NCBI GenBank assembly: GCA_031370645.1
Contig: JANMQV010000009.1
Location: 2,200 to 66,199, forward strand
Direction of reading: 5' to 3'
Origin: Candidatus Eiseniibacteriota bacterium
GTDB taxonomy: Bacteria; Eisenbacteria; RBG-16-71-46; SZUA-252
DNA length: 64,000 bases
The translations under genes and the position numbers were made by a program. Below are positions 1,180-61,702 of this stretch, one piece after another. Numbering within the stretch: the stretch's first letter is position 1; every line of letters begins with the position of its first letter. The notes under the pieces were generated by a model, which did not search any database, was not told the origin of the DNA, and saw nothing but the letters and a program-made list of their open reading frames with translations.

Positions 1180-1194
1180 TCGACAGGAGCGGCC

Positions 1195-7556: not shown

Positions 7557-7597
7557 CCGCGTGAGCGCGCGAACGAACAGGAACGGGGAATAAGCCC

Positions 7598-16469: not shown

Positions 16470-16705
16470 TGTTTCCAGATTCCTCTCTGCAGCACTTCTT
16501 GAAGCACCACGCTGTTTCGGAGCATCAAAGGATGCCCGGTGGGCGACTCCGGCGCCTCGGGGGGAGAGCCACACACGGAGAGAGTATACCGCGCCACCGA
16601 GCGAAACCGTGCTTCATTACTGCAGATGGGCGCTGTAAACCATTGTAGGGTGGATTGTTGCAGCAAGTGGCGCGGCGCCTGTTCGGGGAGCGATGGGGCT
16701 CTCAG

Positions 16706-25295: not shown

Positions 25296-25459
25296 GTCTG
25301 GTTTCGTTCCTCGACACTTGGAAGGGGTGACGCGTCTCGCGAGCACGCGCAAGCGGCCCCGGAATTTACAGTTACCCCGGGCGCCGGGAAACACCTTATT
25401 CTATCGAAAATCTCGCTGCGCATGCTTCGGCATTTTCGACGACACAAGGAGACCCGACG

Positions 25460-28022: not shown

Positions 28023-28269
28023 GGCTGCAGAGTACCAACCGGCGCTCGTGCCTGTCACCCCGCGCCTCCTTGGGGCGCTTGGATGTCTCGCCGGCGCGTG
28101 AGAGCGGCAACTTTCCCGTGGACTTTCCATCGGTCGGAATCTAGCCTCATCGGCTCATGAAGGATTCGCGCGAGTTCCTTCCGCGTTGCGCTCCGTCACC
28201 GATCCGACAGACTTCCATGGCCTCTCCCACAATCCATCTCGCCTTCGCGGCGCCGATCCCGGAGCAGCC

Positions 28270-32395: not shown

Positions 32396-32662
32396 ATGAA
32401 CGCTGACACCACGACCGGACGGATCCGGCACTTCATCCTGAACCAGTTTCCCTTGGCCCGCCAACGCGCCATCGGCGATGACGACCCGCTGCTCCGAACG
32501 GGGATCCTCGATTCGCTCGGCATTCTCGAGGTCGTCGCTTTTATCGAGTCCGAGTTCCAGATCACGGTCGCCGACGAGGAGCTCGTTGCGGAGAGTTTCG
32601 AGTCGATCGCCACGATGGCTCGGTTCGTGGACGGGAAACGCCAGCGCGAGGTCGGCGCGTAG
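32396..32662 (+). CDS. Acyl carrier protein
   Basis: 88 aa. The LDSLGILEVVAFIE motif carries the phosphopantetheine-attachment serine (DSL). Confidence 0.6.
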   Translation: MNADTTTGRIRHFILNQFPLARQRAIGDDDPLLRTGILDSLGILEVVAFIESEFQITVADEELVAESFESIATMARFVDGKRQREVGA

Positions 32663-32675
32663 CCGCCGGGACACC

Positions 32676-34247
32676 GTGGACTTCTTGATCCACCACATGC
32701 TGCGGTCGAGCGCCGCCCGCCTCCCGGAGAAAGAGGCGCTGGTGTGCGGCGATCAGCGCCTTTCGTACGCCGAGGTGTGGGCGCGCGTCCGTGGCCTCGC
32801 CGCGGGAATCCGCCGCGCCGGGATCGAGCGCTCCGATCGCGTCGGGATCTTCCTCGACGCCTCCGTCGAGCAGTCGATCTCGATTTTCGCCGTCTCGCGC
32901 GCCGAGTGCGTCTTCGTGCCGATCAGCGGCGTCTTGCTTCAAGATCAGGTGGCGCACATCGTCCGCGATTGCCGCATGCGATGCCTCATCGTCTCCGCGT
33001 CGAAACTGGAGATCGTGGTGCCGGTACTCTCGTCTATTCCGACGCTGGAGCGGCTCATCGTGGTCGGGGGAAGCGCGCCCGCGGGGACGCCGCTTCCGGC
33101 CGACTCGTACGAGGCGCTCTGCGGCGACGTGCCGGCCTCCGACGCCCCGGAAGCATCGATCGAGAAGGATCTCGCGGCGATCCTCTACACGTCCGGGTCG
33201 ACCGGGAAGCCGAAGGGCGTCATGTTGAGCCACGGGCAGGTGATGGCCGGCGCCACGATCGTCTCGACCTATCTCGAGATCACGGAATCGGAGCGGATCC
33301 TCGCGGTCCTCCCGTTCAGTTTCGATGCCGGCATGAACCAGATCATGACGGCGTTCCAGCGCGGCGCGACAATCGTCCTGAAGCCGTTCGTCTTCGCCCG
33401 CGAGCTGGTGACGGCGCTGAAGAACGAACGGATCACGGGCCTCGCCGGCGTGCCGACGCTCTGGGGTCTCCTCGCCCAGCCGAGCTCGTCGCTCAGCAAG
33501 GGGACCTACCCGCATCTTCGCTACATCACGAACACCGGCGGCGTCATGCCGCAGGACGTCCTCGCCACGCTTCGGGCGGCGCTCCCGACGACGAAGGTCT
33601 TCCTCATGTACGGGCTGACCGAAGCGTTTCGCTCGACCTATCTGCCTCCCTCCGAACTCGACAAGCGACCGACCTCGATGGGGAAGGCGATTCCCGATAC
33701 CGAAATCCTGGTGATCGACGAGAATGGCCGGCGGTGCGGGCCCGGCGAAATCGGCGAACTGGTCCATCGCGGCCCGACGGTGTCGATGGGGTATTGGGGA
33801 CAGCCGGAACTGACGGCGCGCGTGCTCCGACCCCATCCATTCCTTCCGCCGGAGCTCGGCGACACGGAACGGGTCTGCTATTCCGGCGATCTCGTCAAGA
33901 TGGACGAGGACGGCTTCCTCTACTTCATCGGGCGGCGAGACAATATGATCAAGTCGTCCGGATATCGAATCAGTCCGACCGAGGTCGAAGAGGTGCTCTT
34001 CCAGAGCGGAATGGTCCAACTTGCCGCTGTCATCGGCGTCCCGGATCCGATGCTTGGCGCGATCGTCGTCGCCTTCGTCGTGCCGAGCGAAGGAGGGTCG
34101 TTCGACCCCGCTGCGCTCCAGGCCTACTGCTCCGCGAAGATGCCGCCCTACATGTTGCCGAAGACAATCGAGGTCCTCGACCACTTGCCGAAGACGAGCA
34201 GCGGCAAGGTGGACTATCCCGCGCTGCGCCGTCGAACGGGGAGCTGA
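32676..34247 (+). CDS. Acyl-CoA ligase (AMP-forming), exosortase A-associated family (TIGR03098-like)
   Basis: YTSGSTGKPKGV AMP-binding motif, a YGLTE motif, and a C-terminal SSGKVDY lysine motif. GTG start at 32676 after the ACP stop. Confidence 0.8.
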   Translation: MDFLIHHMLRSSAARLPEKEALVCGDQRLSYAEVWARVRGLAAGIRRAGIERSDRVGIFLDASVEQSISIFAVSRAECVFVPISGVLLQDQVAHIVRDCRMRCLIVSASKLEIVVPVLSSIPTLERLIVVGGSAPAGTPLPADSYEALCGDVPASDAPEASIEKDLAAILYTSGSTGKPKGVMLSHGQVMAGATIVSTYLEITESERILAVLPFSFDAGMNQIMTAFQRGATIVLKPFVFARELVTALKNERITGLAGVPTLWGLLAQPSSSLSKGTYPHLRYITNTGGVMPQDVLATLRAALPTTKVFLMYGLTEAFRSTYLPPSELDKRPTSMGKAIPDTEILVIDENGRRCGPGEIGELVHRGPTVSMGYWGQPELTARVLRPHPFLPPELGDTERVCYSGDLVKMDEDGFLYFIGRRDNMIKSSGYRISPTEVEEVLFQSGMVQLAAVIGVPDPMLGAIVVAFVVPSEGGSFDPAALQAYCSAKMPPYMLPKTIEVLDHLPKTSSGKVDYPALRRRTGS

Positions 34248-34249
34248 AC

Positions 34250-35554
34250 GTGGACCACGTCCGAGAGCTCGTGGCACGGCACTTCGGCGAACGCGGCGGA
34301 GAGCTCTTGGTCGGCGGCATGGCGATTCGTGAATTGGCGGAGAAGTTCGGTACGCCGCTCTTCATCTACGACGCCGCCGCCATCGATCGGCAGATCGAGA
34401 ATCTCCGCTCCACCTATCCCGCGCCATTCGAGATCTACTACTCAGTCAAGGCGAACCCCTGTCCCGCGGTGGTCCGCCACTTCGTGGAGCGCGGCCTCGG
34501 GCTCGAGATCGCCTCCGGCGGGGAATTCCACCAGGCGATTCGGGCGGGATGCGCGGCCGATCGAATTCTCTTCGCGGGTCCCGGGAAGAGCGAGCGGGAA
34601 CTCGCCTACGTCCTCGAACACGGAATCGGCGAGATCCATCTCGAGTCGATCCTCGAGGGGAAGCGGGTCGCGTCGATCAGCAAGCGATTGGGAATTCGAA
34701 CGCGAGTCGCGCTTCGAGTCAATCCGGGCGCCGAAGCGCAGGGGGGCGCCATGCGAATGGGCGGGAAGCCGGCCCCGTTTGGCGTGGACGAAGAGCTCCT
34801 CGACGACGTCCTCAATCATTTGCTGGCCGAGTCGTCGCTCGATCTCCAGGGAATCCACCTCTACGCGGGGACGCAGATCCTCGACGACCGGATCCTCGTG
34901 ACGCAGTACCGTCGAGGAATCGAGATCGCCCGGCGCGTTGCCGACCGGATGGGCCGCCCGCTCCGAACGATCGATTTCGGGGGCGGGCTCGGCATTCCCT
35001 ACTTCCCGAGCGAGTCGCCGCTGCCCCTCGCGCCGCTTGCGGAGGGTCTCGCGGTGATGGTGAAGGAGCTCCAGCCGGATGCTCGATTCGCGGGCACGCG
35101 TTTCATCATCGAACCGGGCCGCTATCTCGTCGGCGAAGCGGGGATCTACGTCACGCGCGTGAACGACATGAAGGTCTCGCGCGGGAAGACGTTTCTCGTC
35201 GTCGACGGCGGAATGAATCACCACTTGGCGGCGTCGGGAAATCTCGGCCAGGTCATCAAACGGAATTTCCCGGCCGCGATCTTGAATCGTCTTCAGGGCG
35301 ATTCAACGCTGAAGGCCGACGTTGTCGGCCCGCTCTGCACGCCGCTCGACGTCATTGCCCGCGACCTTCCGCTTCCCGCCGCCGAGGTAGGGGATCTGTT
35401 CGGAATCTTCCAGTCGGGAGCCTACGGCCGCTCGGCGAGCCCACTCGGATTCCTGAGCCAGCCTACGCCCGCGGAAGTGCTGGTCCGAAACGGGGAGGCG
35501 ATCCTGGCGCGTCGCGCCGGAACGTTCGAAGAGACCCTTGGAGACGTCCCCTGA
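34250..35554 (+). CDS. Pyridoxal-dependent decarboxylase, exosortase A system-associated (Orn/DAP/Arg decarboxylase fold-III family, TIGR03099-like)
   Basis: FEIYYSVKANPCPAVV (PLP lysine), a GGGLGIPYF motif, and EPGRYLVGEAG. It is the 3' third of ORF 32744..35554. GTG start 3 nt after the ligase stop. Confidence 0.8.
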   Translation: MDHVRELVARHFGERGGELLVGGMAIRELAEKFGTPLFIYDAAAIDRQIENLRSTYPAPFEIYYSVKANPCPAVVRHFVERGLGLEIASGGEFHQAIRAGCAADRILFAGPGKSERELAYVLEHGIGEIHLESILEGKRVASISKRLGIRTRVALRVNPGAEAQGGAMRMGGKPAPFGVDEELLDDVLNHLLAESSLDLQGIHLYAGTQILDDRILVTQYRRGIEIARRVADRMGRPLRTIDFGGGLGIPYFPSESPLPLAPLAEGLAVMVKELQPDARFAGTRFIIEPGRYLVGEAGIYVTRVNDMKVSRGKTFLVVDGGMNHHLAASGNLGQVIKRNFPAAILNRLQGDSTLKADVVGPLCTPLDVIARDLPLPAAEVGDLFGIFQSGAYGRSASPLGFLSQPTPAEVLVRNGEAILARRAGTFEETLGDVP

Positions 35555-35600
35555 CCGCTGGAGGGATCGTGCCGGGGCAAACGGGTTGAAGCAAGTTCTC

Positions 35601-36830
35601 ATGATCGCCTATCACTATCCTCCGCTTCGGGGGAGTAGCGGAATTCAGCGGACGCTTGCGTTCTCGCGCGATCTTCGCGAATTCGGATGGCAGCCGATCG
35701 TCCTGTCGGCCAACCCGCGCGCCTATCCCGGAACCGGCGCCGACCAGCTGCGCGATATCCCTGCGGATGTTCCCGTCTACCGCCCCTTCGCACTCGATAC
35801 GTCGCGGCACCTGTCGATCCGTGGCGCCTATCCGCAGGCGCTCGCGCTCCCCGATCGGTGGTCGAGCTGGCTCCTCGGCGCGGTGCCCGCGGGGTGGGGC
35901 ATCATTCGCCGGCATCGGCCCGACGTCATCTGGTCGACCTATCCGATCGCCACGGCCCACTTGATCGGTCTCTGGCTGCAGCGACTCTCCGGGCTCCCCT
36001 GGGTCGCCGATTTTCGCGACTCCATGACGGAGGCCAACTTTCCGCCGGACCCCACGCTTCGCCGCGTCCGCCAAGACCTCGAACGGAAAACCGTGGAGCG
36101 CGCGTCGCGATCCGTGTTCACGACGCCCGGCGCCCGGCGTATGTATGCGGAGCGCTACCCGAACCTCTCGGCGGAGCGATGGACCGTGATCCCGAACGGA
36201 TACGACGAGGGGCCGTTTCACGACGCGGAGGGCGCCGCCGGACCGACGCGGGCCGAGGGAGCGCCGACCGTGCTCGTCCACAGCGGGCTCCTCTATCCCA
36301 ACGAGCGAGATCCCCGCGCGTTTTTCGATGCGCTGGCGTCGCTACGGCGCCAAGGGGCGGTCTCGTCGAGCACGTTGCAGGTCGTCCTCCGGGCAACCGG
36401 CTTCGACGATCCGTACCGTCCCATGCTGCGCGAGCGGGGAATCGAAGATCTCGTGCGTCTCGAGCCGCCGCTCGGTTACCGCGCCGCGCTCGCCGAGATG
36501 CTCGCCGCCGACGGGCTTCTCCTCTTCCAGGCCGCGAACTGCAATCATCAGATCCCGGCGAAGGTCTACGAGTACCTTCGGGCGCGACGACCGATCTTCG
36601 CCATGACCGACTCCGGCGGCGACACCGCGCGCGTCCTCCGAGAAGCGGGAGTCGACAGCATCGTCCCGCTCGATTCCGCGGAGAAGATCGCTCAGGGTCT
36701 GTCGACCTTCCTCGACGCGCTCCGCCGGAAGGCCGCAGCGGTGCCCGGGCCCGAAGTGGTCGACCGCTATTCTCGTCGCGCGCGGGCACGCGAGCTCGCG
36801 GCGCTTCTCGATTCGATCACCGGAGGCTGA
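35601..36830 (+). CDS. Glycosyltransferase (GT4-like), exosortase-locus associated
   Basis: MIAYHYPPLRGSSGIQRTLAFSRDL N-terminus, with a GT-B C-terminal region. Confidence 0.65.
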   Translation: MIAYHYPPLRGSSGIQRTLAFSRDLREFGWQPIVLSANPRAYPGTGADQLRDIPADVPVYRPFALDTSRHLSIRGAYPQALALPDRWSSWLLGAVPAGWGIIRRHRPDVIWSTYPIATAHLIGLWLQRLSGLPWVADFRDSMTEANFPPDPTLRRVRQDLERKTVERASRSVFTTPGARRMYAERYPNLSAERWTVIPNGYDEGPFHDAEGAAGPTRAEGAPTVLVHSGLLYPNERDPRAFFDALASLRRQGAVSSSTLQVVLRATGFDDPYRPMLRERGIEDLVRLEPPLGYRAALAEMLAADGLLLFQAANCNHQIPAKVYEYLRARRPIFAMTDSGGDTARVLREAGVDSIVPLDSAEKIAQGLSTFLDALRRKAAAVPGPEVVDRYSRRARARELAALLDSITGG

Positions 36831-36843
36831 CCGAGGAGCATTC

Positions 36844-38157
36844 ATGCGCGACTATCTCGTGCTGGCCATCATCCTTCTCGGGGCGCCGCTCGCCCTCTTC
36901 CGGCCGTATCTCGGCATCCTCTGGTGGTGCTGGATCAGCTACATGAATCCCCACCGCCTTACGTGGGGGATCGCCTACAACTTCCCGGCCGCCATGGTGA
37001 TCGGCGGCGCCACGCTGGCGGGGCTCCTCTTCACCAAGGATCGAACGAAGGTCCCGTTCGAGCGAGAGACGATCCTTCTCATCATTCTCTACATCCTGTT
37101 CGTCGTGACGACGAACTTCGCCCTCGCTCCTATTTCAGCGTGGAGCCGCTTCACGGAAATCTCGAAGATTCTCCTGATGACGGTCGCCACGATGGCGCTC
37201 GTCACCTCGCGGCATCGGTTCCGGACGTTTCTTTTGGTGATCGCCTTGTCGGTCGGATTCTTCGGCGCGAAGGGAGGCCTCTTCAGCCTTCGGGGCGGCG
37301 GCGTGGACCGAATCTACGGCCCCCCGGGCTCGTTCCTCGAGGACAACAATGATCTGGCGCTCGCCATCGTCATGGTGCTTCCGCTGCTCTTCTACCTGAC
37401 CCGCGACGAACCTCGAGCCTGGTTCCGGTGGGTGTTGCGAGGGACGGGCCTTCTTTCGATTCTCACCGTCATCTTCACCTACTCGCGCGGAGGGTTCGTC
37501 GGGCTCGCGGCTATCGCGGGGTGGTCGCTTCTGAAGTCGAAGAAGAAGTTTTTGGCGGTGATTCTGCTCGCGCTCGCGGTCGGAGTCGGATTCTTCTTCG
37601 TGCCGACGCAGTGGGTGGATCGAATGCAGACGATCGGCGACGTCGCGGACGAGTCGGCGCAAGGGCGGATCAACGCCTGGATGTTCGCCTACAATCTCGC
37701 TTCCGCCCGGCTCTTCGGCGGAGGCTTCGATGTCTGGTCGCCCGACCTCTTTCTCAGATACGCGCCGAATCCGACGGATTTTCACGCCGCTCACAGCATC
37801 TATTTCGAAATGCTCGGCGAGCAGGGCTTCATCGGGCTCGGACTCTTCCTGGCCATCCTCGCCTCTTCGATCTTCAGTTTGCAGGGACTACGTCGCTACC
37901 GACACTGGCCGGAGATGCGGTGGGTATCGGACTACGCCGACATGCTGCAGATCGCCTTGATCGGCTACGTCACGAGCGGGGCGTTTCTCGGGCGCGCGAA
38001 CTTCGACCTCTACTACCACTTGATCGCCGCCACGATCATCTTGAAAGCGCTCGCGAAACGGGAGGCGTGGGCTCTCTCGCAGGCCGCCGCGGAGCCGGAG
38101 CCCGCGTCCGAGATTCCCGCGCTGTCCCAGCCCGTGCCGGGACTACAACCGGGGTGA
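36844..38157 (+). CDS. O-antigen ligase-like / putative O-glycosylation ligase, exosortase A system-associated (TIGR03097-like, Wzy_C family)
   Basis: About 10-12 TM helices and a Wzy_C-type loop (FTYSRGGFVGLAAIAGWSLL...HSIYFEMLGEQG). GAGGAG RBS. Confidence 0.75.
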   Translation: MRDYLVLAIILLGAPLALFRPYLGILWWCWISYMNPHRLTWGIAYNFPAAMVIGGATLAGLLFTKDRTKVPFERETILLIILYILFVVTTNFALAPISAWSRFTEISKILLMTVATMALVTSRHRFRTFLLVIALSVGFFGAKGGLFSLRGGGVDRIYGPPGSFLEDNNDLALAIVMVLPLLFYLTRDEPRAWFRWVLRGTGLLSILTVIFTYSRGGFVGLAAIAGWSLLKSKKKFLAVILLALAVGVGFFFVPTQWVDRMQTIGDVADESAQGRINAWMFAYNLASARLFGGGFDVWSPDLFLRYAPNPTDFHAAHSIYFEMLGEQGFIGLGLFLAILASSIFSLQGLRRYRHWPEMRWVSDYADMLQIALIGYVTSGAFLGRANFDLYYHLIAATIILKALAKREAWALSQAAAEPEPASEIPALSQPVPGLQPG

Positions 38158-39659: not shown

Positions 39660-40083
39660 GTCGTTCGCTCCGGGCTCGGCCGCACGAGAGTTAGGCGTAG
39701 GGAGTTGGATCCCGATGACCATCTCGCGCGTTGCGTGTTTGGGGTCGATCAGAACCGAGTACCCCGTTTTGGGCGAACTCGTTCCCGAATCCACCCGGAA
39801 TTTAGCACGATTCGGGCCAAGTCGCGCTCCCGTATGGAATCGAGCACTTGGCGCCGAATCATTCCCGATTCATCGACAGAACGCGTGTCGCGGCTTGCAC
39901 TCCGCGAGGGCGAAATCGCGAAGCGCGGTGAAAACCGAGCCGGTCGTTCCGCATCCAATGGTTCTACCCCTTCCGGCGGCAGGAAAAGGTGTGCCGTCTG
40001 GCCGGGGGACTAACGTCCCGGCAGGAAACGTGTTAGGCCGATCGATGCGCTCCCTGCAAACGCCGGGAGAAGCGGAGTGGCGT

Positions 40084-40099
40084 TGGTGCGAAATTTGCG
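40084..40099 (+). promoter_or_regulatory. Candidate sigma54 promoter TGGTGCG-N4-TTGCG, about 55 nt upstream of the Fn3/CTD gene and exosortase
   Basis: Correct GG-N10-GC spacing, with 2 mismatches in the -24 box. It lies in a 495-bp divergent intergenic region. Confidence 0.3.
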
Positions 40100-40154
40100 T
40101 CATTCTTCGACGATCCTACCCTGTATGGGTTTAGCGTCCGATGCGGAGGCCTTG

Positions 40155-41198
40155 ATGAGAGTCCGATTCATGCCCGACGTGGTTCGCGCCCTGGCGTGCG
40201 CGGGTATCGTCTCAACCATGACGATTGCCCCGGCGGCGTTCTTCCTGCCGGCGACGCCTGCCTTCGCGCAGACCAGTGCCGCGAACAGCATGACACTACT
40301 TTGGACGGCGTCGGGAGATGACGGAGACCAGGGGCAGGTGAGCGGTTATGAAGCGCGCTTTCGCACCACCCCGCCTGCCGCGGGCGACACCCTCACCTGG
40401 TGGAATGGCGTGCCCTCCGGGCAACGAATCACCCTCGGCCCGCCTCGCGCGTCGGCTGGCGCCGATGATTCGACGAAAGTGACCGGATTGTCTCAGAACA
40501 CTACGTATTACTTCGTGATTCGGGCCTTCGACGAACAGCCCAATTACTCCGCGTACTCGAACGTCGCTACCGGAACTACCGCCTCATGCAACGCTCCCAG
40601 CGCGGCGCCAACCGGATTCGGAGCGGTTGCCGACACGGGACAGGTGACCGTCTCGTGGGGCGCCACGTCCGACCCGCTCGCGCTCTCCCTCCACTTGTAC
40701 CGAGCTCAGGGTTCGACGGGCGCGTTCAACCAGATTCAGAATCTCTCGCCCGGCACGACCTCGTTCCTCGACACGTCCGTCTTGGCCGGCACGACCTATC
40801 GATATCGCGCGGCCTACATGGGCACGCTCTGCGAAGGCCCGACGACCGGCGTCGCGACCGTGACGCTGCCGGGGACGCCGCCGCCACCGCCGCCCGCGGC
40901 CACGGCGGGCTCTTCGACCATTCACGCCTATCCGAACCCCGCGAGCAGCGCGACCGGATCGATTCGGATCGTCGTCGATGTGGACGCCACCGTGGCGACA
41001 CCGGCCTACCTTCGTCTCTTCGACCTGAACGGACACTGGGTCGCCACGCTGGCCGATGGGAACTACCCGCCCGGTAAGACCGAGGTAGCCTGGAACCGGA
41101 TCGGGCGCGACGGGCGAACCGTGGGACCCGGTTACTATGAAATCCTCGGGACCATAGGCATCACGCGGGTACGCGACCGCATCGTCCTCCTTCCGTAG
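40155..41198 (+). CDS. Secreted Fn3-like repeat protein with T9SS-type C-terminal sorting domain
   Basis: Signal peptide ending AFAQ. First repeat LLWTASGDDGDQGQVSGYEARFRT...TLTWWNG; second Fn3-like domain (LYRAQGS...TTYRYRAAY). C-terminus HAYPNPASS...LRLFDLNGHWVATL...GYYEILG...RIVLLP. GGAGG RBS. Confidence 0.65.
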   Translation: MRVRFMPDVVRALACAGIVSTMTIAPAAFFLPATPAFAQTSAANSMTLLWTASGDDGDQGQVSGYEARFRTTPPAAGDTLTWWNGVPSGQRITLGPPRASAGADDSTKVTGLSQNTTYYFVIRAFDEQPNYSAYSNVATGTTASCNAPSAAPTGFGAVADTGQVTVSWGATSDPLALSLHLYRAQGSTGAFNQIQNLSPGTTSFLDTSVLAGTTYRYRAAYMGTLCEGPTTGVATVTLPGTPPPPPPAATAGSSTIHAYPNPASSATGSIRIVVDVDATVATPAYLRLFDLNGHWVATLADGNYPPGKTEVAWNRIGRDGRTVGPGYYEILGTIGITRVRDRIVLLP

Positions 41199-42733
41199 TG
41201 AATCCCGCCCCTTCGCGCGGTTGGACCTCCGCGCTCGTCGCGTTCGCCGCGACGTTTGTCTTCGCGCTCCTCGTCTACGGGAGCACCATCGCGTCGCTCG
41301 TGAACATCTGGAGAATCTCGGACACCTTCGCGCATGGATTCCTCGTGCTGCCGGTCTGCGTCCTTCTTGCGTGGCGCTCGCGCGACCGGCTGGTAACGCT
41401 CCAGCCGCGACCCTACCCCCTCGCCCTGATCGGACTCCTTCCACTCGGCTTCGGGTGGATCATGGGCCGCGCCGCGAGCACGCTCTCCGTCGAACAGTTC
41501 TGTTTCGTGGCGATGATTCCGATCCTCGTGATTGCGCACTTCGGCCCGGCCGTCGCTCGCCGCCTCGCGTTTCCGCTCGCGTTTCTCTTCTTCGCCGTGC
41601 CGTTCGGCGATGTCTTCCAGCCGCGGCTCATGGAGATCACCGCCGGGTTCGCGGAGCGGACGCTTCGATGGAGCGGCGTGGAAGTTTCCCGGGAGGGGCT
41701 CTTCCTCGCCACGACGAATTCACGCTGGCGGGTCGTCGAGTCGTGCAGCGGGCTGCGATTCACGGTCGCGGGAGTCGTTCTGGCGACTCTCTTCGCCCAC
41801 CTCTCGTACCGTTCGAATCTCAAGCGGGCCATCTTCGTCGCCTCGGCCGTGCCCGTTTCGATTCTCGCGAACGGGATCCGCGCATACGTCCTCATCATGC
41901 TCGGACACCTGACCCACATGCGCCGTGGCGTGGGATTCGATCACTACATGTACGGATGGCTCGTCTTCACGCTCGTGATGGCCGCGTTCTTCATGATCGG
42001 CTCCGCATTTCGAGATCCTGAACGGCCGGCAACTCCCGCGGGTACGGGAGAAGGGGACGGTCCGCCGAGTGCGCCGCTCCCCCTCGGCCGTCGCGTCTCT
42101 GTCGCGGCTCTCGCGGCCATCTTCCTTGCCGCGTGGCCGGTGCTCGATGCGATCGGTTCGTCCCGCGGACTCGATCGGACTCCCGTCGTTCTCGCCGCCC
42201 CGGCCCCGCAGCGTGGCTGGGTGCTCGAGGCCGTGCAGGACTCGCTTTGGAAGCCCCACTTTCTCGGCGCCACTTCCGAGCTGAATGAACGCTATGCCGG
42301 AGCCGGCGGCACCGTTCAATGCTTTGTCGCGTATTACACGAACCAGTCGCAGGGGCGGGAACTGCTGCACACGGGGAACCGGATCATCGTGATGGGAGAT
42401 CCGACGTGGCTCGTCGTCGGGGAGGGGAGCCGCTCGTTGCCCGGCAGCTCGCCGCCCGCGTCGATCCGTGAGACCTCGGTTCGCGGTCCCGACGGTCCGA
42501 TGGTCGTCTGGAACTGGTACTGGCTTCCCGACGAGTACACTTCCGACCCGTTCCGGGCAAAGTGGCTTCAAGCGAAGAGCCGCATGCTCGGCCGGGGAGA
42601 CCGTGCCGCCGTGATCGTGCTCGCCGCGACCGCGCCCGATCCGCGCGACGCCGAACGGTTGCTGGCGCAATTCAGCGGCGACATGCTCCCTTCGATCCGA
42701 CTCGCCCTTCGAAGCGCGCAACATTCCCGCTAG
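41198..42733 (+). CDS. xrtA: Exosortase A fused to EpsI-family domain (XrtA-EpsI)
   Basis: Eight TM helices with exosortase catalytic motifs (ESCSGLRF Cys, ANGIRAY Arg, FAHG). The C-terminal roughly 200 aa are EpsI-like (soluble, after GSAFRD). GTG start overlapping the upstream TAG (TAGTG). Confidence 0.85.
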   Translation: MNPAPSRGWTSALVAFAATFVFALLVYGSTIASLVNIWRISDTFAHGFLVLPVCVLLAWRSRDRLVTLQPRPYPLALIGLLPLGFGWIMGRAASTLSVEQFCFVAMIPILVIAHFGPAVARRLAFPLAFLFFAVPFGDVFQPRLMEITAGFAERTLRWSGVEVSREGLFLATTNSRWRVVESCSGLRFTVAGVVLATLFAHLSYRSNLKRAIFVASAVPVSILANGIRAYVLIMLGHLTHMRRGVGFDHYMYGWLVFTLVMAAFFMIGSAFRDPERPATPAGTGEGDGPPSAPLPLGRRVSVAALAAIFLAAWPVLDAIGSSRGLDRTPVVLAAPAPQRGWVLEAVQDSLWKPHFLGATSELNERYAGAGGTVQCFVAYYTNQSQGRELLHTGNRIIVMGDPTWLVVGEGSRSLPGSSPPASIRETSVRGPDGPMVVWNWYWLPDEYTSDPFRAKWLQAKSRMLGRGDRAAVIVLAATAPDPRDAERLLAQFSGDMLPSIRLALRSAQHSR

Positions 42734-43145
42734 TTCCTCCCGCTTCACCTCCTCACCCCCAAACGATTCTCGTTCGATCGCGTGCAGCATGAGCGACCGC
42801 CGCGTGCGGATCGCGCCGTGCATCGTGCGCGTTCGGACACGCCTCGCGCGCTAGCTGCTTACCGACGACCGTGTTTGCAGCGTGCAGGGTGCACCGCGCG
42901 TACTCCGCGCCATGGCACATTTCGTGCAGACACTGGCGCGCGGTGGGATGGGGGTCCTGCCAAACATCAATCGAGTCCCATGAACGCATGCGACCCGCCC
43001 TCTCGGGTGGGGAGCAACACCGTGGGCAATCGGACCCAGGCGAACGCTCGCGTTCGGCTGGGTACAGAACTGCATCTCGAGGAGGATCTCCATGCGCCGT
43101 TGCCTACCTGTTCCTCACCACCCCCTTCGCGGCCCTCGAATCGCG

Positions 43146-43979
43146 ATGCGGGGAGTCATGCGCCGTTCTCTCCTGATCGGAGCGGCGATTCTCACCATGT
43201 TCGCGGCCGGAGTCGCGAAAGCACAGACCTCGGCCGACTCGTCGGTAGTTCTGCAGTGGACCGCGCCGGGAGATGACGGCACGATCGGCCGCGCCACATC
43301 GTATGACCTTCGGTATCGCACGACCGCGATCTCGGCCACGGATACTCTGACGTGGTGGAACGGCGCGACTCCGGTAAGCGGCGAGCCCGTCCCGAGCACC
43401 TCCGGAGCGACCGATTCGATGCGAGTACGCGGTCTCACGCCCTTGACGACCTACTTCTTCATCGTGCGCGCGGCCGATGAGGTTCCGAATTGGTCGGGAT
43501 ACTCGAACGTGGCGAGCAAGACGACGTCCGGCGATGCGACGCCGCCGGCCGCCATTACCACGCTGGCGGTGACCGCTACGACCGGCTCCACCATGGCACT
43601 TCGGTGGAACGCTCCGGGTAACGACGGGAGCACGGGCACGGCCGCCAGCTACGATATCCGCTATTCGACGAGTCCCATCACCTCGGCCAATTGGACAACC
43701 GCAACGCAGGCGACCGGGGAACCGGCTCCCGCCGTCGCGGGGACGCAGCAGGTCTACACACTCCCCGGACTCTCCGGAAGTCAGACCTATTACGTGGCGA
43801 TCAAGGCGACGGACGGCAGCGGTAACGTCGGAGCGCTGTCGAATGTCGTGAGCGGCACCACGGCCGACACGGTCGCGCCGGCCGCGGTTCGCGATCTCTC
43901 GATGCGCGATCTGCCGGCGGGCAATCAAGGGCCGCCGGTCGCGACGCTTCGCGGCGGCAACGAGCGTCATGATTCCTAA
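43146..43979 (+). CDS. Secreted protein with two Fn3-like repeats (paralog of flanking genes; no C-terminal sorting domain)
   Basis: Signal peptide (MRGVMRRSLLIGAAILTMFAAGVAKAQ). Repeats VLQWTAPGDDGTIGRATSYDLRYRT...TLTWWNG and ALRWNAPGNDGSTGTAASYDIRYST. Confidence 0.55.
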   Translation: MRGVMRRSLLIGAAILTMFAAGVAKAQTSADSSVVLQWTAPGDDGTIGRATSYDLRYRTTAISATDTLTWWNGATPVSGEPVPSTSGATDSMRVRGLTPLTTYFFIVRAADEVPNWSGYSNVASKTTSGDATPPAAITTLAVTATTGSTMALRWNAPGNDGSTGTAASYDIRYSTSPITSANWTTATQATGEPAPAVAGTQQVYTLPGLSGSQTYYVAIKATDGSGNVGALSNVVSGTTADTVAPAAVRDLSMRDLPAGNQGPPVATLRGGNERHDS

Positions 43980-44934
43980 ACGTTCTCCTGGAGGTTGCTT
44001 CGGGGTTGCGAGGGCGGCGGCATTCGCCGCCCTCCTTCTCCCGGGATCGGCCGCGGCCGATTCAATCACGCTCTCGTGGACCGCGCCGGGCGACGACGGC
44101 AACACGGGCCGGGCGACCTCCTATGAGCTTCGCTACTCGGATCAGGCGATTGCGGGGCAGGACACGGTCTCGTGGTGGAACTCCGCCTCCGTGGCCGGCG
44201 CGCTTCCTTCGCCTCAGTCGGCGGGGGCTCGCGAGTCGTTCACGTTGCCGGGGCTGACGACCGGACTCACGTATTACTTCGTCCTCCGCACGTCGGATGA
44301 AGTGCCGAACGTCTCCGGATTCTCGAACGCGCGCATGCGCCAGGTCGGAGCGGTCGCGCTCGCGACGCCGACCGGCTTCACCGCGCAGGCGGCGACGGGC
44401 GGAGTCCTGCTGTCGTGGCAAGAGCCGGCGTCGGGCGCGGGGGAGGGGTACCATCTCTATCGTCGCGAAGGCGCGAGCGGCGCGGACACGCTGCTTCGGA
44501 CCTCACCGCTCGGCACGACGCGATGGACCGACCCGTCCGCCAAGGCGGGCACGGACTATGAATATCGGATCGCAACCTATCTCGGCGCCGTGGAAGGCAC
44601 GCCCGCCGTCGCGACCATCAACGTCCCGGCCGTCGCCATCGCCGAAGGCGTGACCGTGATCGAGGGCTATCCTAATCCCGCTCACGGCAGCGTGACGTTT
44701 CGATTCCGCGCCGAGACGAGGGATGGATCACCAGGACACGCGCGAATCGTCGTCTTCGACATGGGCGGCCACCGAATCGCTCAACTCCTCGATGGAGAGG
44801 TACCGTCCGGCGAGCAATCGATCCAGTGGCTCTGCCGCTCCGACCAGGGAAGCCCGGTGTCCCCGGGCCTCTACAACGCCATCCTCGACGGACCCGAGGG
44901 GCGTTCCGTGATGCGCGTGGCTGTCGTTCCCTGA
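43969..44934 (+). CDS. Secreted Fn3-like repeat protein with T9SS-type C-terminal sorting domain
   Basis: Signal peptide (AFAALLLPGSAAA). ITLSWTAPGDDGNTGRATSYELRYS...TVSWWN, and a second Fn3-like domain (HLYRREG...DYEYRIATY). C-terminus GYPNPAHGSVTF...IVVFDMGGHRIAQL...GLYNAIL...RVAVVP. Confidence 0.65.
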   Translation: MIPKRSPGGCFGVARAAAFAALLLPGSAAADSITLSWTAPGDDGNTGRATSYELRYSDQAIAGQDTVSWWNSASVAGALPSPQSAGARESFTLPGLTTGLTYYFVLRTSDEVPNVSGFSNARMRQVGAVALATPTGFTAQAATGGVLLSWQEPASGAGEGYHLYRREGASGADTLLRTSPLGTTRWTDPSAKAGTDYEYRIATYLGAVEGTPAVATINVPAVAIAEGVTVIEGYPNPAHGSVTFRFRAETRDGSPGHARIVVFDMGGHRIAQLLDGEVPSGEQSIQWLCRSDQGSPVSPGLYNAILDGPEGRSVMRVAVVP

Positions 44935-45043: not shown

Positions 45044-45976
45044 GTGAAGGGGACGGAATCGAACTCGAAACGCTCCGCGGAGCCTCTCTTCGCGATGAGC
45101 GTCGACGTCGAGGAGCACTTCCAAGTTCAGGCGTTCGCGAAACTCGTCCCGCGAGAGTCGTGGCCGCTTCACCCGTCCCGTGTCGAGCAGAACACCCGCC
45201 TCTTGCTCGACCTCTTCGACGAATCCGGGACCAAGGCCACGTTCTTCACGCTCGGCTGCGTGGCGCGGGAACACCCGAGCCTCGTTCGCGAAATCGTGGT
45301 TCGCGGTCACGAGATGGCTTCGCACGGCATGGATCATCGAATGTTGACCGAACTCACCCCCGACGAATTCCGAATTCAAGCACGCGATTCGCGCGCCCTC
45401 CTCGAAGATCTCACGGGGAAGCGGGTCCTCGGATTTCGAGCGCCCTCCTATAGCATCGGACGCTCGACGCTCTGGGCCATCGATTTGCTCGCGGAGACGG
45501 GGTACGAATATGATTCGAGCGTCTATCCGATCCGCCGGCGGCGGTACGGATATCCGGAGGGCCCGGTGGCGCCCGCGATGATTCGTGGGCCGGGCGGCGC
45601 GTCGCTCGCGGAATTTCCATTACCGACACTCGCGGTCGGTCCGTTGCGGATTCCCGTACTCGCCGGCGCATTCCTGCGCCTCCTTCCACTTCATCTCTCG
45701 CGTCTCGCGCTCGAGCTTCATCGCTCCGGTGCCCGCGCGCTCATCGTGAACGTTCACCCTTGGGAACTCGATCCCACGCAACCGACCCTCGGTCCGTCAC
45801 GCCGCGCGACCTGGACGCACTACGCGCGACTCGGCCGCGTGGAGGGAATTCTCCGCGCGCTACTTTCGCGCGCGACATTTCGGACCGCGGCGACTCGACT
45901 GGGGCAACTCGGACTCTTGCCTGGCTCGAGGGGCTTGAACGAGATTCCGAGTGCCGACGTCAAATCGGGGGACTAG
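45044..45976 (+). CDS. Polysaccharide deacetylase family protein, PEP-CTERM locus subfamily (TIGR03006-like)
   Basis: MSVDVEEHFQVQAF N-terminus typical of this family, with a NodB-like core (FFTLGCVAREHP, HGMDH). The start may be the internal Met at 45095. Confidence 0.75.
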   Translation: MKGTESNSKRSAEPLFAMSVDVEEHFQVQAFAKLVPRESWPLHPSRVEQNTRLLLDLFDESGTKATFFTLGCVAREHPSLVREIVVRGHEMASHGMDHRMLTELTPDEFRIQARDSRALLEDLTGKRVLGFRAPSYSIGRSTLWAIDLLAETGYEYDSSVYPIRRRRYGYPEGPVAPAMIRGPGGASLAEFPLPTLAVGPLRIPVLAGAFLRLLPLHLSRLALELHRSGARALIVNVHPWELDPTQPTLGPSRRATWTHYARLGRVEGILRALLSRATFRTAATRLGQLGLLPGSRGLNEIPSADVKSGD

Positions 45977-46243: not shown

Positions 46244-46972
46244 TTGAAGCAAAGCCGACTTTGGATCCCTGCTCTGATCATCGCCGTCATGGCGGTGAAT
46301 GCTCCCGCGGCCTTTGCTATTCCCGCCCTGCAGCTTTATTGCCCGGACGCCACGTACGACCAGCTGAACGAAACGTGGGTGATCTCCGATAACACCTTCG
46401 AGCTCCAGGTCATCGGCGCCGTCGGGAGTTATGGATCGATCTACGACGTGACGCTCGCGGCCTCGTTCTACGGCACCGGCGGCAACATGAGTATTCTCCC
46501 TGGACTCGCGGTCGACGCAGACTACGCCGACAAGCCGGGCTTCAAGGCAGGGGTCTCCAATCACGCCGAGTTCAAGAACGCGAACAGCCACGCGTTCTAC
46601 GACATCGGCGACTTCACGAAGACGACCGACACGATTTACGATTACACTGGCGGACCGCTCGGTTCGGCGAAGCAGGGCGAGATCAAGTCGTACATGATCC
46701 ACATCACTGGTTACGACGCGGTCCACTTCGACGCCTTCGACCACTACTACACGCAGCAGGGTCGGACGGCGACGTACAAGCTCCACGGAGTCTTCGCCCC
46801 GTTCTCCCACGATGCGACGGGTGGCGGTGGTGAAGGTGGCAGCGGTGGAGGTGGCGGTAGCGGTGGTGGTGGCGGGAACGGCGGTGGCGGTGGCTCCACG
46901 GTTCCTGAGCCCGCGTCGCTGCTTCTTCTGGCTCCGGGTCTCGCGGGACTGCTGATCCGCCGCAAGAAGTAA
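46244..46972 (+). CDS. PEP-CTERM sorting-domain protein (exosortase substrate)
   Basis: Signal peptide (IPALIIAVMAVNAPAAFA), a Gly-rich linker (GGGGEGGSGGGGGSGGGGGNGGGGGS), then VPEPASLLLLAPGLAGLLIRRKK: PEP motif + TM helix + basic tail. TTG start 9 nt after GGGAGAGG. Confidence 0.85.
   Translation: MKQSRLWIPALIIAVMAVNAPAAFAIPALQLYCPDATYDQLNETWVISDNTFELQVIGAVGSYGSIYDVTLAASFYGTGGNMSILPGLAVDADYADKPGFKAGVSNHAEFKNANSHAFYDIGDFTKTTDTIYDYTGGPLGSAKQGEIKSYMIHITGYDAVHFDAFDHYYTQQGRTATYKLHGVFAPFSHDATGGGGEGGSGGGGGSGGGGGNGGGGGSTVPEPASLLLLAPGLAGLLIRRKK
46816..46900 (+). repeat. Glycine-codon simple repeat (GGN)n inside the PEP-CTERM gene linker
   Basis: ggtggcggtggtgaaggtggcagcggtggaggtggcggtagcggtggtggtggcgggaacggcggtggcggtggc. 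Confidence 0.5.
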
Positions 46973-48202: not shown

Positions 48203-48543
48203 GCAGCCCTCCTTACGGCGGCGCGCACGCGCCTGCATCGCGCACCCTCCCGGCGCGTTCGAGCCAATCTCTCTCCTTCTTCGAACCCTCATCGCGAGAC
48301 GCCTCACTGTGCAATATGCGGCATCCGTACCGATCCGTGCGTGGCTGGTTCGACGCGCCGCCATGCGCGCGATGCACCCCCTTGCGCCGCAACGAAGTCG
48401 AGGCTCGCGGAGCGCCGCAGCGCCGCTTTTCCCGTGGCACGCTAACTGCTTTAACGGGAAGTGGGTCTGCTGTGTCGCACCGCGCCAGGGGGTCGAAGGC
48501 CGGCGACCAGGCTATGGGGGATTCTTCAGACGGGAGATTTCTT

Positions 48544-50127
48544 ATGACTTGGTCCACTCCGGGTCGAACGACGCCGAAGCACGCGATGCTCCGACTCGCT
48601 CCTCTCGCTGTTCTGATGGCCACACTCCTGTACCCGGGGGTACGTGGCACCGCATCCGCCGCGCTCGTCGGCGGGTCGTCGGCGGACTTCCTTCAGTTCG
48701 AGGTCGGCGGTCGATCGGCGGGCATGGGCGGCGCCCAAACGGGCGTCGCGACGGGCGTGACGGCTCAGTTCTGGAACCCCGCACTCTTGGCGACGCTTCA
48801 GAATCCGGAGGTCGGTGCGCTGCACGCCTCGTGGCTACAGGACCTGAGCTACGAGTGGGTCGGCTATGCGCGCCCCCTCGGATCGAGCCTCGGCGTTGGA
48901 TCGGTCTCGGCGGCGTACTTCCATATGCCGAGCATCCAGGGCGTCGATGAGTTCAACAACCCGACCGGCACCTTCCGCGTCTACGACCTCGCGATCACGG
49001 CCGGACTCTCGCGGCCCGTCGCGCGCGGCGTGAACGTCGGCGCCAATCTCAAGATGATCCGGCAGAATCTCGCGACCGTTTCAGCGACGGGCGTGGCCGC
49101 CGATTTCGGCGTCGCGGCGGCCGTGCTCGGCGGCACGGTCGGCCTCGCGGTCCAGAATGTGGGACCGAACATGGCGTACAGCGATGCCGCCTCCTACCCG
49201 CTACCGCAGCAGATCCGCTTCGGCGTGAGCCGCGGCTTTCTTCAAGAGCGCCTTCTTGTCGCGGCCGACTACAACTCGCCCCGCAACTATTTTAACGACG
49301 TCCGACTCGGCACCGAGTTCAAGGCGCACCGGAACATCTCCATTCGTCTCGGTTATCGCTATGAACTCGGAAGCTCGAACGACCCGGTCACCGGGCTCTC
49401 GTACGGACTCGGCCTTCACTTCGGCCCGGCATCGCTCGATTACGCGATGACTCCGAGCAACGACTTCGACAACGTGCAGCGCTTCGCGTTCGGATACAGT
49501 TTCGGCGGCGGCGCCGAGGAGACGCCGGCGAAGCCGCAGGCGCCGAAGAAGCAGAAGCCGCTGCCGCCGGCGCCGCCGAAGAACCCGACCACGGTCGCCG
49601 CCGCGCCGAACGCGAAGAAGAATCCGAAGCCGGTCGCACCCGTGAGCATCCTTTCGGACACGAAGACGGTTGCCTCCGCGCCCGTGGCCCCGGTCGTGTC
49701 GCCTGATGTCCGCTCCGCGACGGAGACTGCCGCGCCGAAGTCGAACAACACTCCGACCGAGTCGGCGCCGAGCCCCGCTCCCGTCGTGATCGCGACGGCT
49801 CCGGAGAAGGCGCCCGAAACAATCGTGGAGAAGGCCGCTGAGAAGGCTCCGGAGAAGAGTGCCCCGAAGGAATCGAAGCCCGTGAAGGTCGTCCTCGAGC
49901 ACCTCGTGTTGCTCCTCGGCTATAGCTCGATGGAAAGTGCTCAGTCCGAGATGAAGGCGCTCCAGCTACTCGGATTCAGGACGAAGGACGCGTCGATAGT
50001 GGCCGACCCGAAGGGGGGCTACGCCATTCGCCTCGCGCAGATGAAGTCGAAGGACAGCGCGGAGGGAATGGTTTCGGATCTCGCTCGGATGTCGTTTCGG
50101 GCCGTGGTACAGACCGTCCAGCGCTAG
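48544..50127 (+). CDS. PorV/PorQ-family-like outer-membrane beta-barrel protein with Pro/Lys/Ala-rich linker and C-terminal SPOR domain
   Basis: Signal peptide (MLRLAPLAVLMATLL). The N-terminal GSSADFLQFEVGGRSAGMGGAQTGVATGVTAQFWNPALLA matches the hallmark start of PorV-like barrels, followed by alternating beta-strand patterns. A low-complexity linker (PAKPQAPKKQKPLPPAPPKNP...EKAPEKSAPKESKP) follows. The C-terminal roughly 75 aa are SPOR-like (VVLEHLVLLLGYSSMESAQSEMKALQLLGF...GYAIRLAQMKSKDSAEGMVSDL). ATG 7 nt after GGGAGA. Confidence 0.55.
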   Translation: MTWSTPGRTTPKHAMLRLAPLAVLMATLLYPGVRGTASAALVGGSSADFLQFEVGGRSAGMGGAQTGVATGVTAQFWNPALLATLQNPEVGALHASWLQDLSYEWVGYARPLGSSLGVGSVSAAYFHMPSIQGVDEFNNPTGTFRVYDLAITAGLSRPVARGVNVGANLKMIRQNLATVSATGVAADFGVAAAVLGGTVGLAVQNVGPNMAYSDAASYPLPQQIRFGVSRGFLQERLLVAADYNSPRNYFNDVRLGTEFKAHRNISIRLGYRYELGSSNDPVTGLSYGLGLHFGPASLDYAMTPSNDFDNVQRFAFGYSFGGGAEETPAKPQAPKKQKPLPPAPPKNPTTVAAAPNAKKNPKPVAPVSILSDTKTVASAPVAPVVSPDVRSATETAAPKSNNTPTESAPSPAPVVIATAPEKAPETIVEKAAEKAPEKSAPKESKPVKVVLEHLVLLLGYSSMESAQSEMKALQLLGFRTKDASIVADPKGGYAIRLAQMKSKDSAEGMVSDLARMSFRAVVQTVQR

Positions 50128-59496: not shown

Positions 59497-59528
59497 CTCT
59501 AGATCATCGCATCCGCGCGCCGCGGGGG

Positions 59529-61673: not shown

Positions 61674-61702
61674 GACCGGCGCCGCCACGGGCCGCGAACT
61701 CC

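What the first reader, a model, noticed from the sequence alone, without database searches (positions are those of the whole stretch)
41198..42733. XrtA fused to an EpsI-like domain in a single 511-aa polypeptide
The N-terminal roughly 290 aa have all exosortase hallmarks: eight TM helices, a CSGLRF Cys, a NGIRAY Arg and an FAHGF motif. The C-terminal roughly 200 aa are soluble and co-linear with EpsI-family proteins (TIGR02914), which are normally encoded by the gene next to xrtA. The fusion physically couples the protease with its proposed partner or methanolan-type accessory.
Basis: partly seen in the sequence, partly recalled or inferred. Interest (0 to 1): 0.5.

Follow-up and report, generated by a model that had tools for sequence, protein, structure and literature searches.

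The report
Common two-domain exosortase A protein
This gene encodes an ordinary exosortase A, a membrane enzyme thought to cut the anchoring tail off PEP-CTERM proteins, and its built-in EpsI domain is an arrangement described in 2006 and shared by most of its close relatives.

Summary
ORF 41198..42733 (+) encodes a 511-aa protein. Residues 15-273 match exosortase A (TIGR03109, 287.7 bits, cutoff 208). Residues 335-501 match EpsI (TIGR02914, 99 bits, cutoff 42.8; Pfam DUF3485 covers 306-500). The FAHGF, CSGLRF and NGIRAY motifs are present. No frameshift was found at the junction.

The implied rarity is wrong. Haft et al. [quoted passage not shown] In their Table 1, 8 of 13 EpsI-containing systems have both domains in one gene. 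NCBI now names the model "exosortase C-terminal domain/associated protein EpsI".

In my searches:
- All 117 complete proteins among the best 120 homologues are fused.
- All 83 fetched loci are fused, including Nitrosomonas, Nitrosospira and Methylobacillus.
- A search with the exosortase domain alone returned 131 of 150 nearest cluster representatives at fused length.

The gene sits in a canonical XrtA/PEP-CTERM exopolysaccharide locus.

Verdict: real, already known, low interest.

The parts
41198..42733 (+). xrtA gene encoding the 511-aa two-domain exosortase A (XrtA-EpsI)
   Evidence: Single ORF. TIGR03109 287.7 bits (cutoff 208) and TIGR02914 99 bits (cutoff 42.8). PF09721 plus PF11984. A 100% identical 511-aa protein, P0001, is in public data.
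41240..42016 (+). Exosortase (8-TM) catalytic domain, aa 15-273
   Evidence: TIGR03109 aligns aa 15-273 to model positions 2-261 of 261. Eight hydrophobic segments and matching helices in the AF2 model.
41744..41746 (+). Codon of Cys183 (CSGLRF), putative catalytic nucleophile
   Evidence: Invariant in 34 aligned sequences. Cys/Arg/His is the inferred exosortase triad (Haft preprint 10.1101/2023.06.07.544157).
41879..41881 (+). Codon of Arg228 (NGIRAY), putative triad Arg
   Evidence: N225, R228 and A229 are invariant in alignment A1.
41942..41944 (+). Codon of His249, putative triad His at the start of TM8
   Evidence: H249 is invariant in alignment A1.
42011..42088 (+). Pro/Gly-rich, poorly conserved linker (aa about 272-297), inferred cytoplasmic
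   Evidence: Variable length and sequence in A1. pLDDT below 50 at aa 282-287. Flanked by RD..R and GRR charges.
42092..42157 (+). Ninth TM helix (aa about 299-320), the membrane anchor of the EpsI domain
   Evidence: Hydropathy peak of 1.99. Helix 296-322 in the AF2 model. PF11984 begins at aa 306.
42113..42700 (+). EpsI / DUF3485 domain (aa 306-501), inferred periplasmic
46244..46972 (+). Candidate substrate: a choice-of-anchor N protein with the PEP-CTERM tail VPEPASLLLLAPGLAGLLIRRKK
   Evidence: NF038141 109.6 bits (cutoff 40). TIGR02595 20.1 bits (cutoff 16). PF07589 24.7 bits (cutoff 20.7). Motif scan.
32478..38157 (+). XrtA-system marker genes upstream: acyl-CoA ligase (32478-34247), PLP decarboxylase (34274-35554), GT4 glycosyltransferase (35538-36830) and O-antigen-ligase-like protein (36844-38157)
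   Evidence: TIGR03098 632.9 bits (cutoff 592). TIGR03099 462.2 bits (cutoff 478.45, just below). TIGR03097 449.8 bits (cutoff 188). GT4 Pfam domains.
45044..45976 (+). XrtA system polysaccharide deacetylase
   Evidence: TIGR03006 289.1 bits (cutoff 276.2).

Best explanation
This is a standard exosortase A (XrtA) of the common two-domain form, encoded inside a canonical XrtA/PEP-CTERM exopolysaccharide locus, probably in a Candidatus Eisenbacteria-like genome.

Shown here:
- An 8-TM exosortase domain carries the invariant Cys183, Arg228 and His249.
- It is followed by a variable linker, a ninth TM helix and a roughly 190-aa EpsI/DUF3485 domain.

Inferred topology:
- By the positive-inside rule, the N-terminus and the 272-297 linker are cytoplasmic.
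- Cys183, Arg228 and His249 lie at the periplasmic ends of TM6, TM7 and TM8.
- TM9 returns the chain across the membrane, so the EpsI domain sits in the periplasm beside the active site.

Inferred mechanism (Haft 2006 model):
- PEP-CTERM proteins, such as the product of 46244-46972, are exported by Sec and held in the inner membrane by their C-terminal helix.
- XrtA's Cys attacks near the PEP motif, removes the anchor, and passes the protein to an acceptor or releases it into the exopolysaccharide matrix.

My proposal for the EpsI domain is the least certain step. I suggest it is a non-catalytic periplasmic binding module with a Mog1p/PsbP-like beta-sheet plus helix fold. It would help position either the substrate's PEP-proximal region or the acceptor.

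The fusion to XrtA is the majority state of this clade and is not an innovation of this genome.
For: HMM scores are above the curated cutoffs for both domains.

Conserved residues. C183, R228 and H249 are invariant. W341, Q383 and N394 in the EpsI domain are also invariant across 34 sequences at 35-77% identity.

Models:
- The AF2 full-length model has pLDDT 87.6 and pTM 0.84, with helix 296-322 as a ninth TM.
- The domain-only model has pLDDT 92.1.

Locus context. Models above cutoff in the window are TIGR03019, TIGR03087, TIGR03108, TIGR03098, TIGR03097 and TIGR03006, plus a PEP-CTERM protein.

The fusion is the norm:
- Haft 2006 text and Table 1.
- 117 of the best 120 homologues carry PF09721+PF11984 at full length and are named 'exosortase A'. 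The other 3 are truncated or partial.
- All 83 fetched loci are fused.
- 131 of 150 nearest representatives are at least 480 aa when only aa 1-290 is the query.

Gene order is conserved in relatives at 55-65% identity.
Against: - No experiment on any EpsI protein or domain was found in the searched literature. Its role is inference only.
- I could not read model coordinates. Contact between the EpsI domain and the active-site face is inferred only from the high pTM.
- The adjacent histidine kinase and sigma-54 regulator score below the PrsK and PrsR cutoffs.
- Only one PEP-CTERM gene lies in the window.
- The 19 shorter hits may include genuinely unfused XrtA, so the 87% figure is approximate.
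Confidence: 0.92

Rival explanations
1. The single ORF is an artefact. Two adjacent genes (xrtA and epsI) were merged by a frameshift or assembly error near 42080.
For: The linker (aa 272-297) is low-complexity, poorly conserved and poorly modelled. Third-position GC dips to 0.65 there.
Against: - The frame is open throughout, and the codon-position GC pattern is in the same frame on both sides.
- 33 homologues down to 35% identity are co-linear through the linker and TM9.
- All 83 independent loci from many assemblies have both domains in one frame.
- An identical 511-aa protein was called on another public contig.
Confidence: 0.02
2. It is not XrtA but another exosortase subtype with a built-in EpsI domain (XrtW or XrtD), serving a different sorting signal.
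For: NF038142 (XrtW, a 494-position full-length fused model) aligns end to end (aa 15-501) at 203 bits. TIGR04152 (XrtD) gives 120.9 bits. The neighbouring PEP-CTERM protein is a 'choice-of-anchor N' family member.
Against: - Both scores are far below their cutoffs (425 and 400), whereas TIGR03109 XrtA passes (287.7 against 208).
- The locus carries the XrtA-specific marker set above cutoff: TIGR03097, TIGR03098, TIGR03006, TIGR03019, TIGR03087 and TIGR03108.
- Sources name the homologues exosortase A.
Confidence: 0.04
3. The identity is the same, but the EpsI domain has a different role. It serves the polysaccharide side of the pathway, for example binding or handing over the nascent exopolysaccharide or lipid-linked acceptor, or contacting Wzy/Wzc-type machinery. 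It would not recognise PEP-CTERM substrates.
For: - EpsI was named from a polysaccharide (methanolan) gene cluster.
- The locus is dominated by polysaccharide genes.
Against: - Many exosortase systems (cyanobacteria, Verrucomicrobia, Planctomycetes) have PEP-CTERM proteins and EpsH but no EpsI. EpsI is therefore not a general requirement of either step.
- No direct data exist.
- The fold hits are too weak to discriminate between ligands.
Confidence: 0.3

Closest known systems
Exosortase A (XrtA; TIGR03109) in its EpsH-EpsI fused form, e.g. Nmul_A2521, NE1797, Tbd_0290, Daro_2406, Noc_1778, ebA4261 and Rru_A3120 (Haft et al. 2006, PMC1569441)
   Same: - The same two Pfam/NCBIfam domains in the same order, and the same length class (about 505-530 aa).
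- The same invariant Cys/Arg/His.
- The same kind of locus, with XrtA-associated ligase, decarboxylase, O-antigen-ligase-like protein, deacetylase, FemAB-like protein and amidotransferase.
- 35-41% identity over the full length to Nitrosomonas, Nitrosospira, Sulfuricella and Methylobacillus proteins.
   Different: - The host lineage is probably Candidatus Eisenbacteria rather than Proteobacteria (names).
- The adjacent two-component regulators do not reach the PrsK and PrsR cutoffs.
- The gene is flanked by FN3 proteins with T9SS-like tails, an arrangement conserved in its closest relatives.
Separate EpsH and EpsI genes (Methylobacillus sp. 12S methanolan cluster; GSU1979/GSU1978, DVU_A0055/56, Dde_0847/48, HCH_03425/24)
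   Same: The same two modules are always encoded together. Where it is a separate gene, EpsI is adjacent to the exosortase gene (Haft 2006 Table 1).
   Different: Here the two are one polypeptide joined by a roughly 25-aa linker. In Methylobacillus sp. MM3 the homologue is also a single 520-aa ORF.
Exosortase W (NF038142) and XrtD (TIGR04152), other exosortases with an integrated EpsI-like C-terminal domain
   Same: Fused architecture. The XrtW model aligns over aa 15-501.
   Different: Scores of 203 and 120.9 bits are far below the cutoffs of 425 and 400. The protein is not a member of either family.
Mog1p/PsbP-like fold proteins (PsbP 2xb3, Mog1 1jhs, PA0094 1tu1 and Eag chaperones SciW/EagT6, DcrB 6e8a, LpqN 6e5d)

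Membership tests
Exosortase A (XrtA, TIGR03109) | Score above the curated cutoff of the XrtA model and above all other exosortase subtype models relative to their cutoffs | tested here: met
   287.7 bits against a cutoff of 208. XrtW, XrtD, XrtB, XrtV, XrtC and XrtN are all below their cutoffs.
Exosortase A (XrtA, TIGR03109) | Conserved Cys, Arg and His of the inferred exosortase/archaeosortase catalytic triad in a polytopic (8-TM) membrane domain | tested here: met
   C183, R228 and H249 are invariant in 34 sequences. Eight hydrophobic segments and helices. The triad is defined in 10.1101/2023.06.07.544157.
Exosortase A (XrtA, TIGR03109) | Location in an exopolysaccharide locus with the XrtA-associated marker genes | tested here: met
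   TIGR03098, TIGR03097, TIGR03006, TIGR03019, TIGR03087 and TIGR03108 are all above cutoff in the window. TIGR03099 is just below (462.2 against 478.45).
Exosortase A (XrtA, TIGR03109) | PEP-CTERM substrate proteins encoded in the same genome (several expected) | tested here: inconclusive
   One clear PEP-CTERM protein lies in the 64-kb window (46244-46972; TIGR02595 20.1 against 16; PF07589 24.7 against 20.7). The rest of the genome is not available.
Exosortase A (XrtA, TIGR03109) | Associated PrsK/PrsR sigma-54 two-component regulators (typical of proteobacterial systems) | tested here: not met
   An adjacent histidine kinase and a sigma-54 response regulator exist. They score 103 against 300 (PrsK) and 377.8 against 502.6 (PrsR). 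A -24/-12 motif scan was at chance level. This feature accompanies many proteobacterial systems but does not define the enzyme.
Exosortase A (XrtA, TIGR03109) | Cleavage of the PEP-CTERM anchor in vivo | not testable with these tools
   Requires genetics and mass spectrometry.
EpsI family (TIGR02914 / PF11984 DUF3485) | Score above the curated cutoffs of the EpsI models | tested here: met
   TIGR02914 99 bits against 42.8, aa 335-501 on model positions 5-171 of 174. PF11984 118.1 bits against 26.1, aa 306-500.
EpsI family (TIGR02914 / PF11984 DUF3485) | Fused to, or encoded next to, an exosortase, and preceded by its own hydrophobic anchor | tested here: met
   Same ORF as XrtA. TM9 lies at aa about 299-320. 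The definition 'fused with or adjacent to' comes from Haft 2006.
Exosortase W (NF038142) | Score above the curated cutoff of 425 bits | tested here: not met
   203 bits.
Mog1p/PsbP-like fold | Significant structural superposition of the EpsI domain on solved members | tested here: inconclusive

The most novel reading that the evidence does not exclude
The EpsI domain may be a membrane-tethered periplasmic module related in fold to the Eag/DUF1795 and PsbP family, in which Eag chaperones bind transmembrane helices of effectors. In that reading it would grip the hydrophobic PEP-CTERM helix or the PEP-proximal segment and feed it to the XrtA active site. That would explain why it is always fused to or adjacent to the enzyme. 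A second possibility is that, in this Eisenbacteria-like clade, the exosortase locus is functionally linked to T9SS-type cargo, namely the conserved flanking FN3 proteins with T9SS-like tails and a PorV/PorQ-family protein.
Probability: 0.12. Interest if true: 0.45.

Novelty: already known. Interest (0 to 1): 0.1.

Why it matters
It matters little as a discovery. The XrtA-EpsI fusion was described with the family in 2006. It is reflected in the NCBIfam model name and is the predominant form among close XrtA relatives.

Its practical value is in annotation. The gene anchors the window as a complete XrtA/PEP-CTERM exopolysaccharide locus in a poorly studied lineage, probably Candidatus Eisenbacteria.

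The function of EpsI remains an open question. No study of it turned up in the searched literature, and no solved structure matched by sequence. The topology argument (a ninth TM helix that should place the domain beside the active site) and the weak Mog1p/PsbP-like fold assignment give simple, testable hypotheses for anyone working on a tractable XrtA organism.

Tried and rejected
- Frameshift or assembly artefact at the junction: rejected on codon-position GC, co-linear homologues and 83 of 83 fused loci.
- A second epsI or exosortase gene in the window: profile HMMs built from A1 found only the ORF itself among 659 open stretches. The next best hits had E 0.16 and E 5.6. The rest of the genome is not available.
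- XrtW or XrtD membership: below cutoff.
- A sigma-54 -24/-12 promoter upstream of the PEP-CTERM gene and its neighbours: 40 matches against 36.2 expected by chance, so uninformative.
- Solved structures: no PDB sequence homologue at E up to 1. Foldseek against PDB gave nothing at E 0.001 or better.
- The afdb50 fold library was not available, so I could not survey fused versus free EpsI in the AlphaFold database.
- Literature: no paper combines 'exosortase' and 'DUF3485'. Haft et al. 2012 (PMC3256604) is not held. The CrtB paper contains none of the searched terms: EpsI, XrtA, 'exosortase A', 'catalytic' or 'cleav'.
- Model coordinates are not exposed, so contacts between the EpsI domain and the active-site face could not be measured.
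Full report
**Observation**

Its GTG start overlaps the TAG stop of the upstream gene by one base. The three motifs are present: FAHGF at aa 44, CSGLRF at aa 183 and NGIRAY at aa 225.

The HMM matches are well above the curated cutoffs:
- NCBIfam TIGR03109 (exosortase A) scores 287.7 bits against a cutoff of 208, over aa 15-273.
- TIGR02914 (EpsI) scores 99 bits against 42.8, over aa 335-501.
- Pfam gives PF09721 (E 4e-66) and PF11984/DUF3485 (E 5.5e-34, aa 306-500).

Other exosortase subtypes, including the naturally fused XrtW (203 bits against 425) and XrtD (120.9 against 400), are below their cutoffs.

**Is the fusion real?**

Yes.
- The frame is open throughout.
- Third-position GC stays in the same frame on both sides of the junction. 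It dips only over the Pro/Gly-rich linker, where first-position GC rises.
- 33 homologues at 35-77% identity are co-linear through the linker and the following hydrophobic helix.
- An identical 511-aa protein was called on another public contig.
- In all 83 related loci fetched, both domain profiles hit the same open frame.

**Anatomy**

Hydropathy and an AlphaFold2 model (pLDDT 87.6, pTM 0.84) show the following order:
- eight TM helices in the exosortase domain;
- a variable, low-confidence linker (aa about 272-297);
- a ninth TM helix (aa about 296-322);
- a beta-sheet plus helix domain.

The EpsI module keeps its own membrane anchor.

By the positive-inside rule, the loops at aa 60-74, 117-122 and 204-211 and the linker are basic, so I place them in the cytoplasm. 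That places Cys183, Arg228 and His249 at the periplasmic ends of TM6, TM7 and TM8. These three residues are all invariant in the alignment. TM9 then delivers the EpsI domain to the same, periplasmic side. This topology is inference and was not measured. Cys/Arg/His is the inferred triad of exosortases and archaeosortases (Haft preprint).

**Context**

The whole window is a canonical XrtA/PEP-CTERM exopolysaccharide locus.

Genes above their curated cutoffs:
- FemAB-family XrtA-associated protein (TIGR03019)
- TIGR03087 glycosyltransferase
- XrtA/PEP-CTERM amidotransferase (TIGR03108, 1049.8 bits)
- exosortase-A-associated acyl-CoA ligase (TIGR03098)
- O-antigen-ligase-like protein (TIGR03097)
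- XrtA-system deacetylase (TIGR03006)
- a PEP-CTERM protein with the tail VPEPASLLLLAPGLAGLLIRRKK (46244-46972)

Other observations on the locus:
- The PLP decarboxylase TIGR03099 is just below cutoff, at 462.2 against 478.45.
- A histidine kinase and a sigma-54 regulator follow, but they do not reach the PrsK and PrsR cutoffs.
- No second EpsI or exosortase ORF exists in the 64 kb.
- Gene order is conserved in metagenomic relatives at 55-65% identity.
- Named relatives point to Candidatus Eisenbacteria.

**Is it unusual?**

No. Haft et al. [quoted passage not shown] In their Table 1, EpsH and EpsI share a locus tag in eight systems: Nmul_A2521, Tbd_0290, Daro_2406, Gmet_1503, NE1797, Noc_1778, ebA4261 and Rru_A3120. 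They are adjacent separate genes in five systems. NCBI's current name for the model is 'exosortase C-terminal domain/associated protein EpsI'.

My own searches agree:
- Of the best 120 homologues, 117 are 504-588 aa with both Pfam domains. The other 3 are truncated or labelled partial. Those with a source name are called 'exosortase A', 'xrtA' or 'EpsH'.
- The best 80 genome loci are all full-length matches. They include Nitrosomonas, Nitrosospira, Sulfuricella, Aromatoleum, Rhodoferax and Methylobacillus sp. MM3, where the homologue is a single 520-aa ORF.
- To remove the bias of a fused query, I searched 1.84 billion cluster representatives with aa 1-290 only. Of the best 150, 131 are at least 480 aa. 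The 19 shorter ones are 280-460 aa, and many may be truncated.

**What does EpsI do?**

I found no experimental work on it, and no solved structure matches by sequence.

Foldseek shows the same proteins weakly. This suggests a Mog1p/PsbP-like fold, typical of non-enzymatic binding modules, but the evidence is too weak for homology.

My working model is that EpsI is a membrane-tethered periplasmic binding module. It would help position the PEP-proximal part of the substrate, or the acceptor, at the XrtA active site. The high pTM of the full-length model is compatible with a fixed inter-domain arrangement, but I could not inspect contacts.

The main rival is a role on the polysaccharide or acceptor side rather than in substrate recognition.

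**Verdict**

The arrangement has been known since 2006 and predominates in this clade, so interest is low.

The side observations are listed separately. They include the conserved FN3 genes with T9SS-like tails flanking xrtA, and a PorV/PorQ-family gene in the locus.

Noticed in passing
window 40077-41198 (+) and 43969-44934 (+); also 43092-43979 (+): xrtA is flanked by FN3-domain secreted proteins. The two outer ones are paralogues (38% identity, E 4e-52). They end not in PEP-CTERM but in a FlgD-Ig/T9SS-type-A-like tail, which aligns with the tail of the TIGR04183-positive protein at 13521-16574. The upstream one is translationally coupled to xrtA by a 1-nt overlap. The same FN3 genes flank xrtA in relatives L081, L082 and L083.
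   Followed up: partly
window 48316-50127 (+): A PorV/PorQ-family outer-membrane protein (NF033709, 157.6 bits against a cutoff of 90) is encoded inside the XrtA locus. It is conserved at the same position in L081 (PF03687). A T9SS-type component in an exosortase locus is unexplained.
   Followed up: partly
window 13521-16574 (-): A 1017-aa protein with a PQQ-dehydrogenase-like N-terminal region and a T9SS type A sorting domain (TIGR04183, 29.7 bits against a cutoff of 23). The genome therefore appears to use T9SS-type tails as well as PEP-CTERM.
   Followed up: no
window 28186-30165 (+) versus 23370-25394 (-): There are two asparagine-synthase-like amidotransferases. The one at 23370-25394 is a full XrtA/PEP-CTERM amidotransferase (TIGR03108, 1049.8 bits). 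The paralogue at 28186-30165 matches only from model position 110 onward (276.8 bits), so its first roughly 127 residues are not the usual glutaminase N-terminus.
   Followed up: no
window 6648-8821 (+) and 43-1977 (+): The locus carries both ABC-type (Wzm/Wzt-like permease and ATPase) and Wzc-type (chain-length determinant plus tyrosine autokinase) polysaccharide export components.
   Followed up: no
window 63269-63979 (-), running towards the window end: The product matches the helicase C-terminal region of the DISARM DrmD/SNF2-like helicases (NF038318, E 2.6e-43, well below cutoff). It is possibly part of a defence or SNF2 helicase gene.
   Followed up: no
window 59500-62400: This is the highest-GC stretch of the window (0.705 at 60001-62000). 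It has long overlapping ORFs on both strands. The one ORF I scanned here (60138-61607, +) had no NCBIfam match. The coding assignment is unclear.
   Followed up: no
L077 2965-4527 (Methylobacillus sp. MM3): In the genus where epsH and epsI were named as separate genes (Methylobacillus sp. 12S), strain MM3 has a single 520-aa fused ORF. Whether the 12S split is real or an early sequencing frameshift could not be checked.
   Followed up: partly
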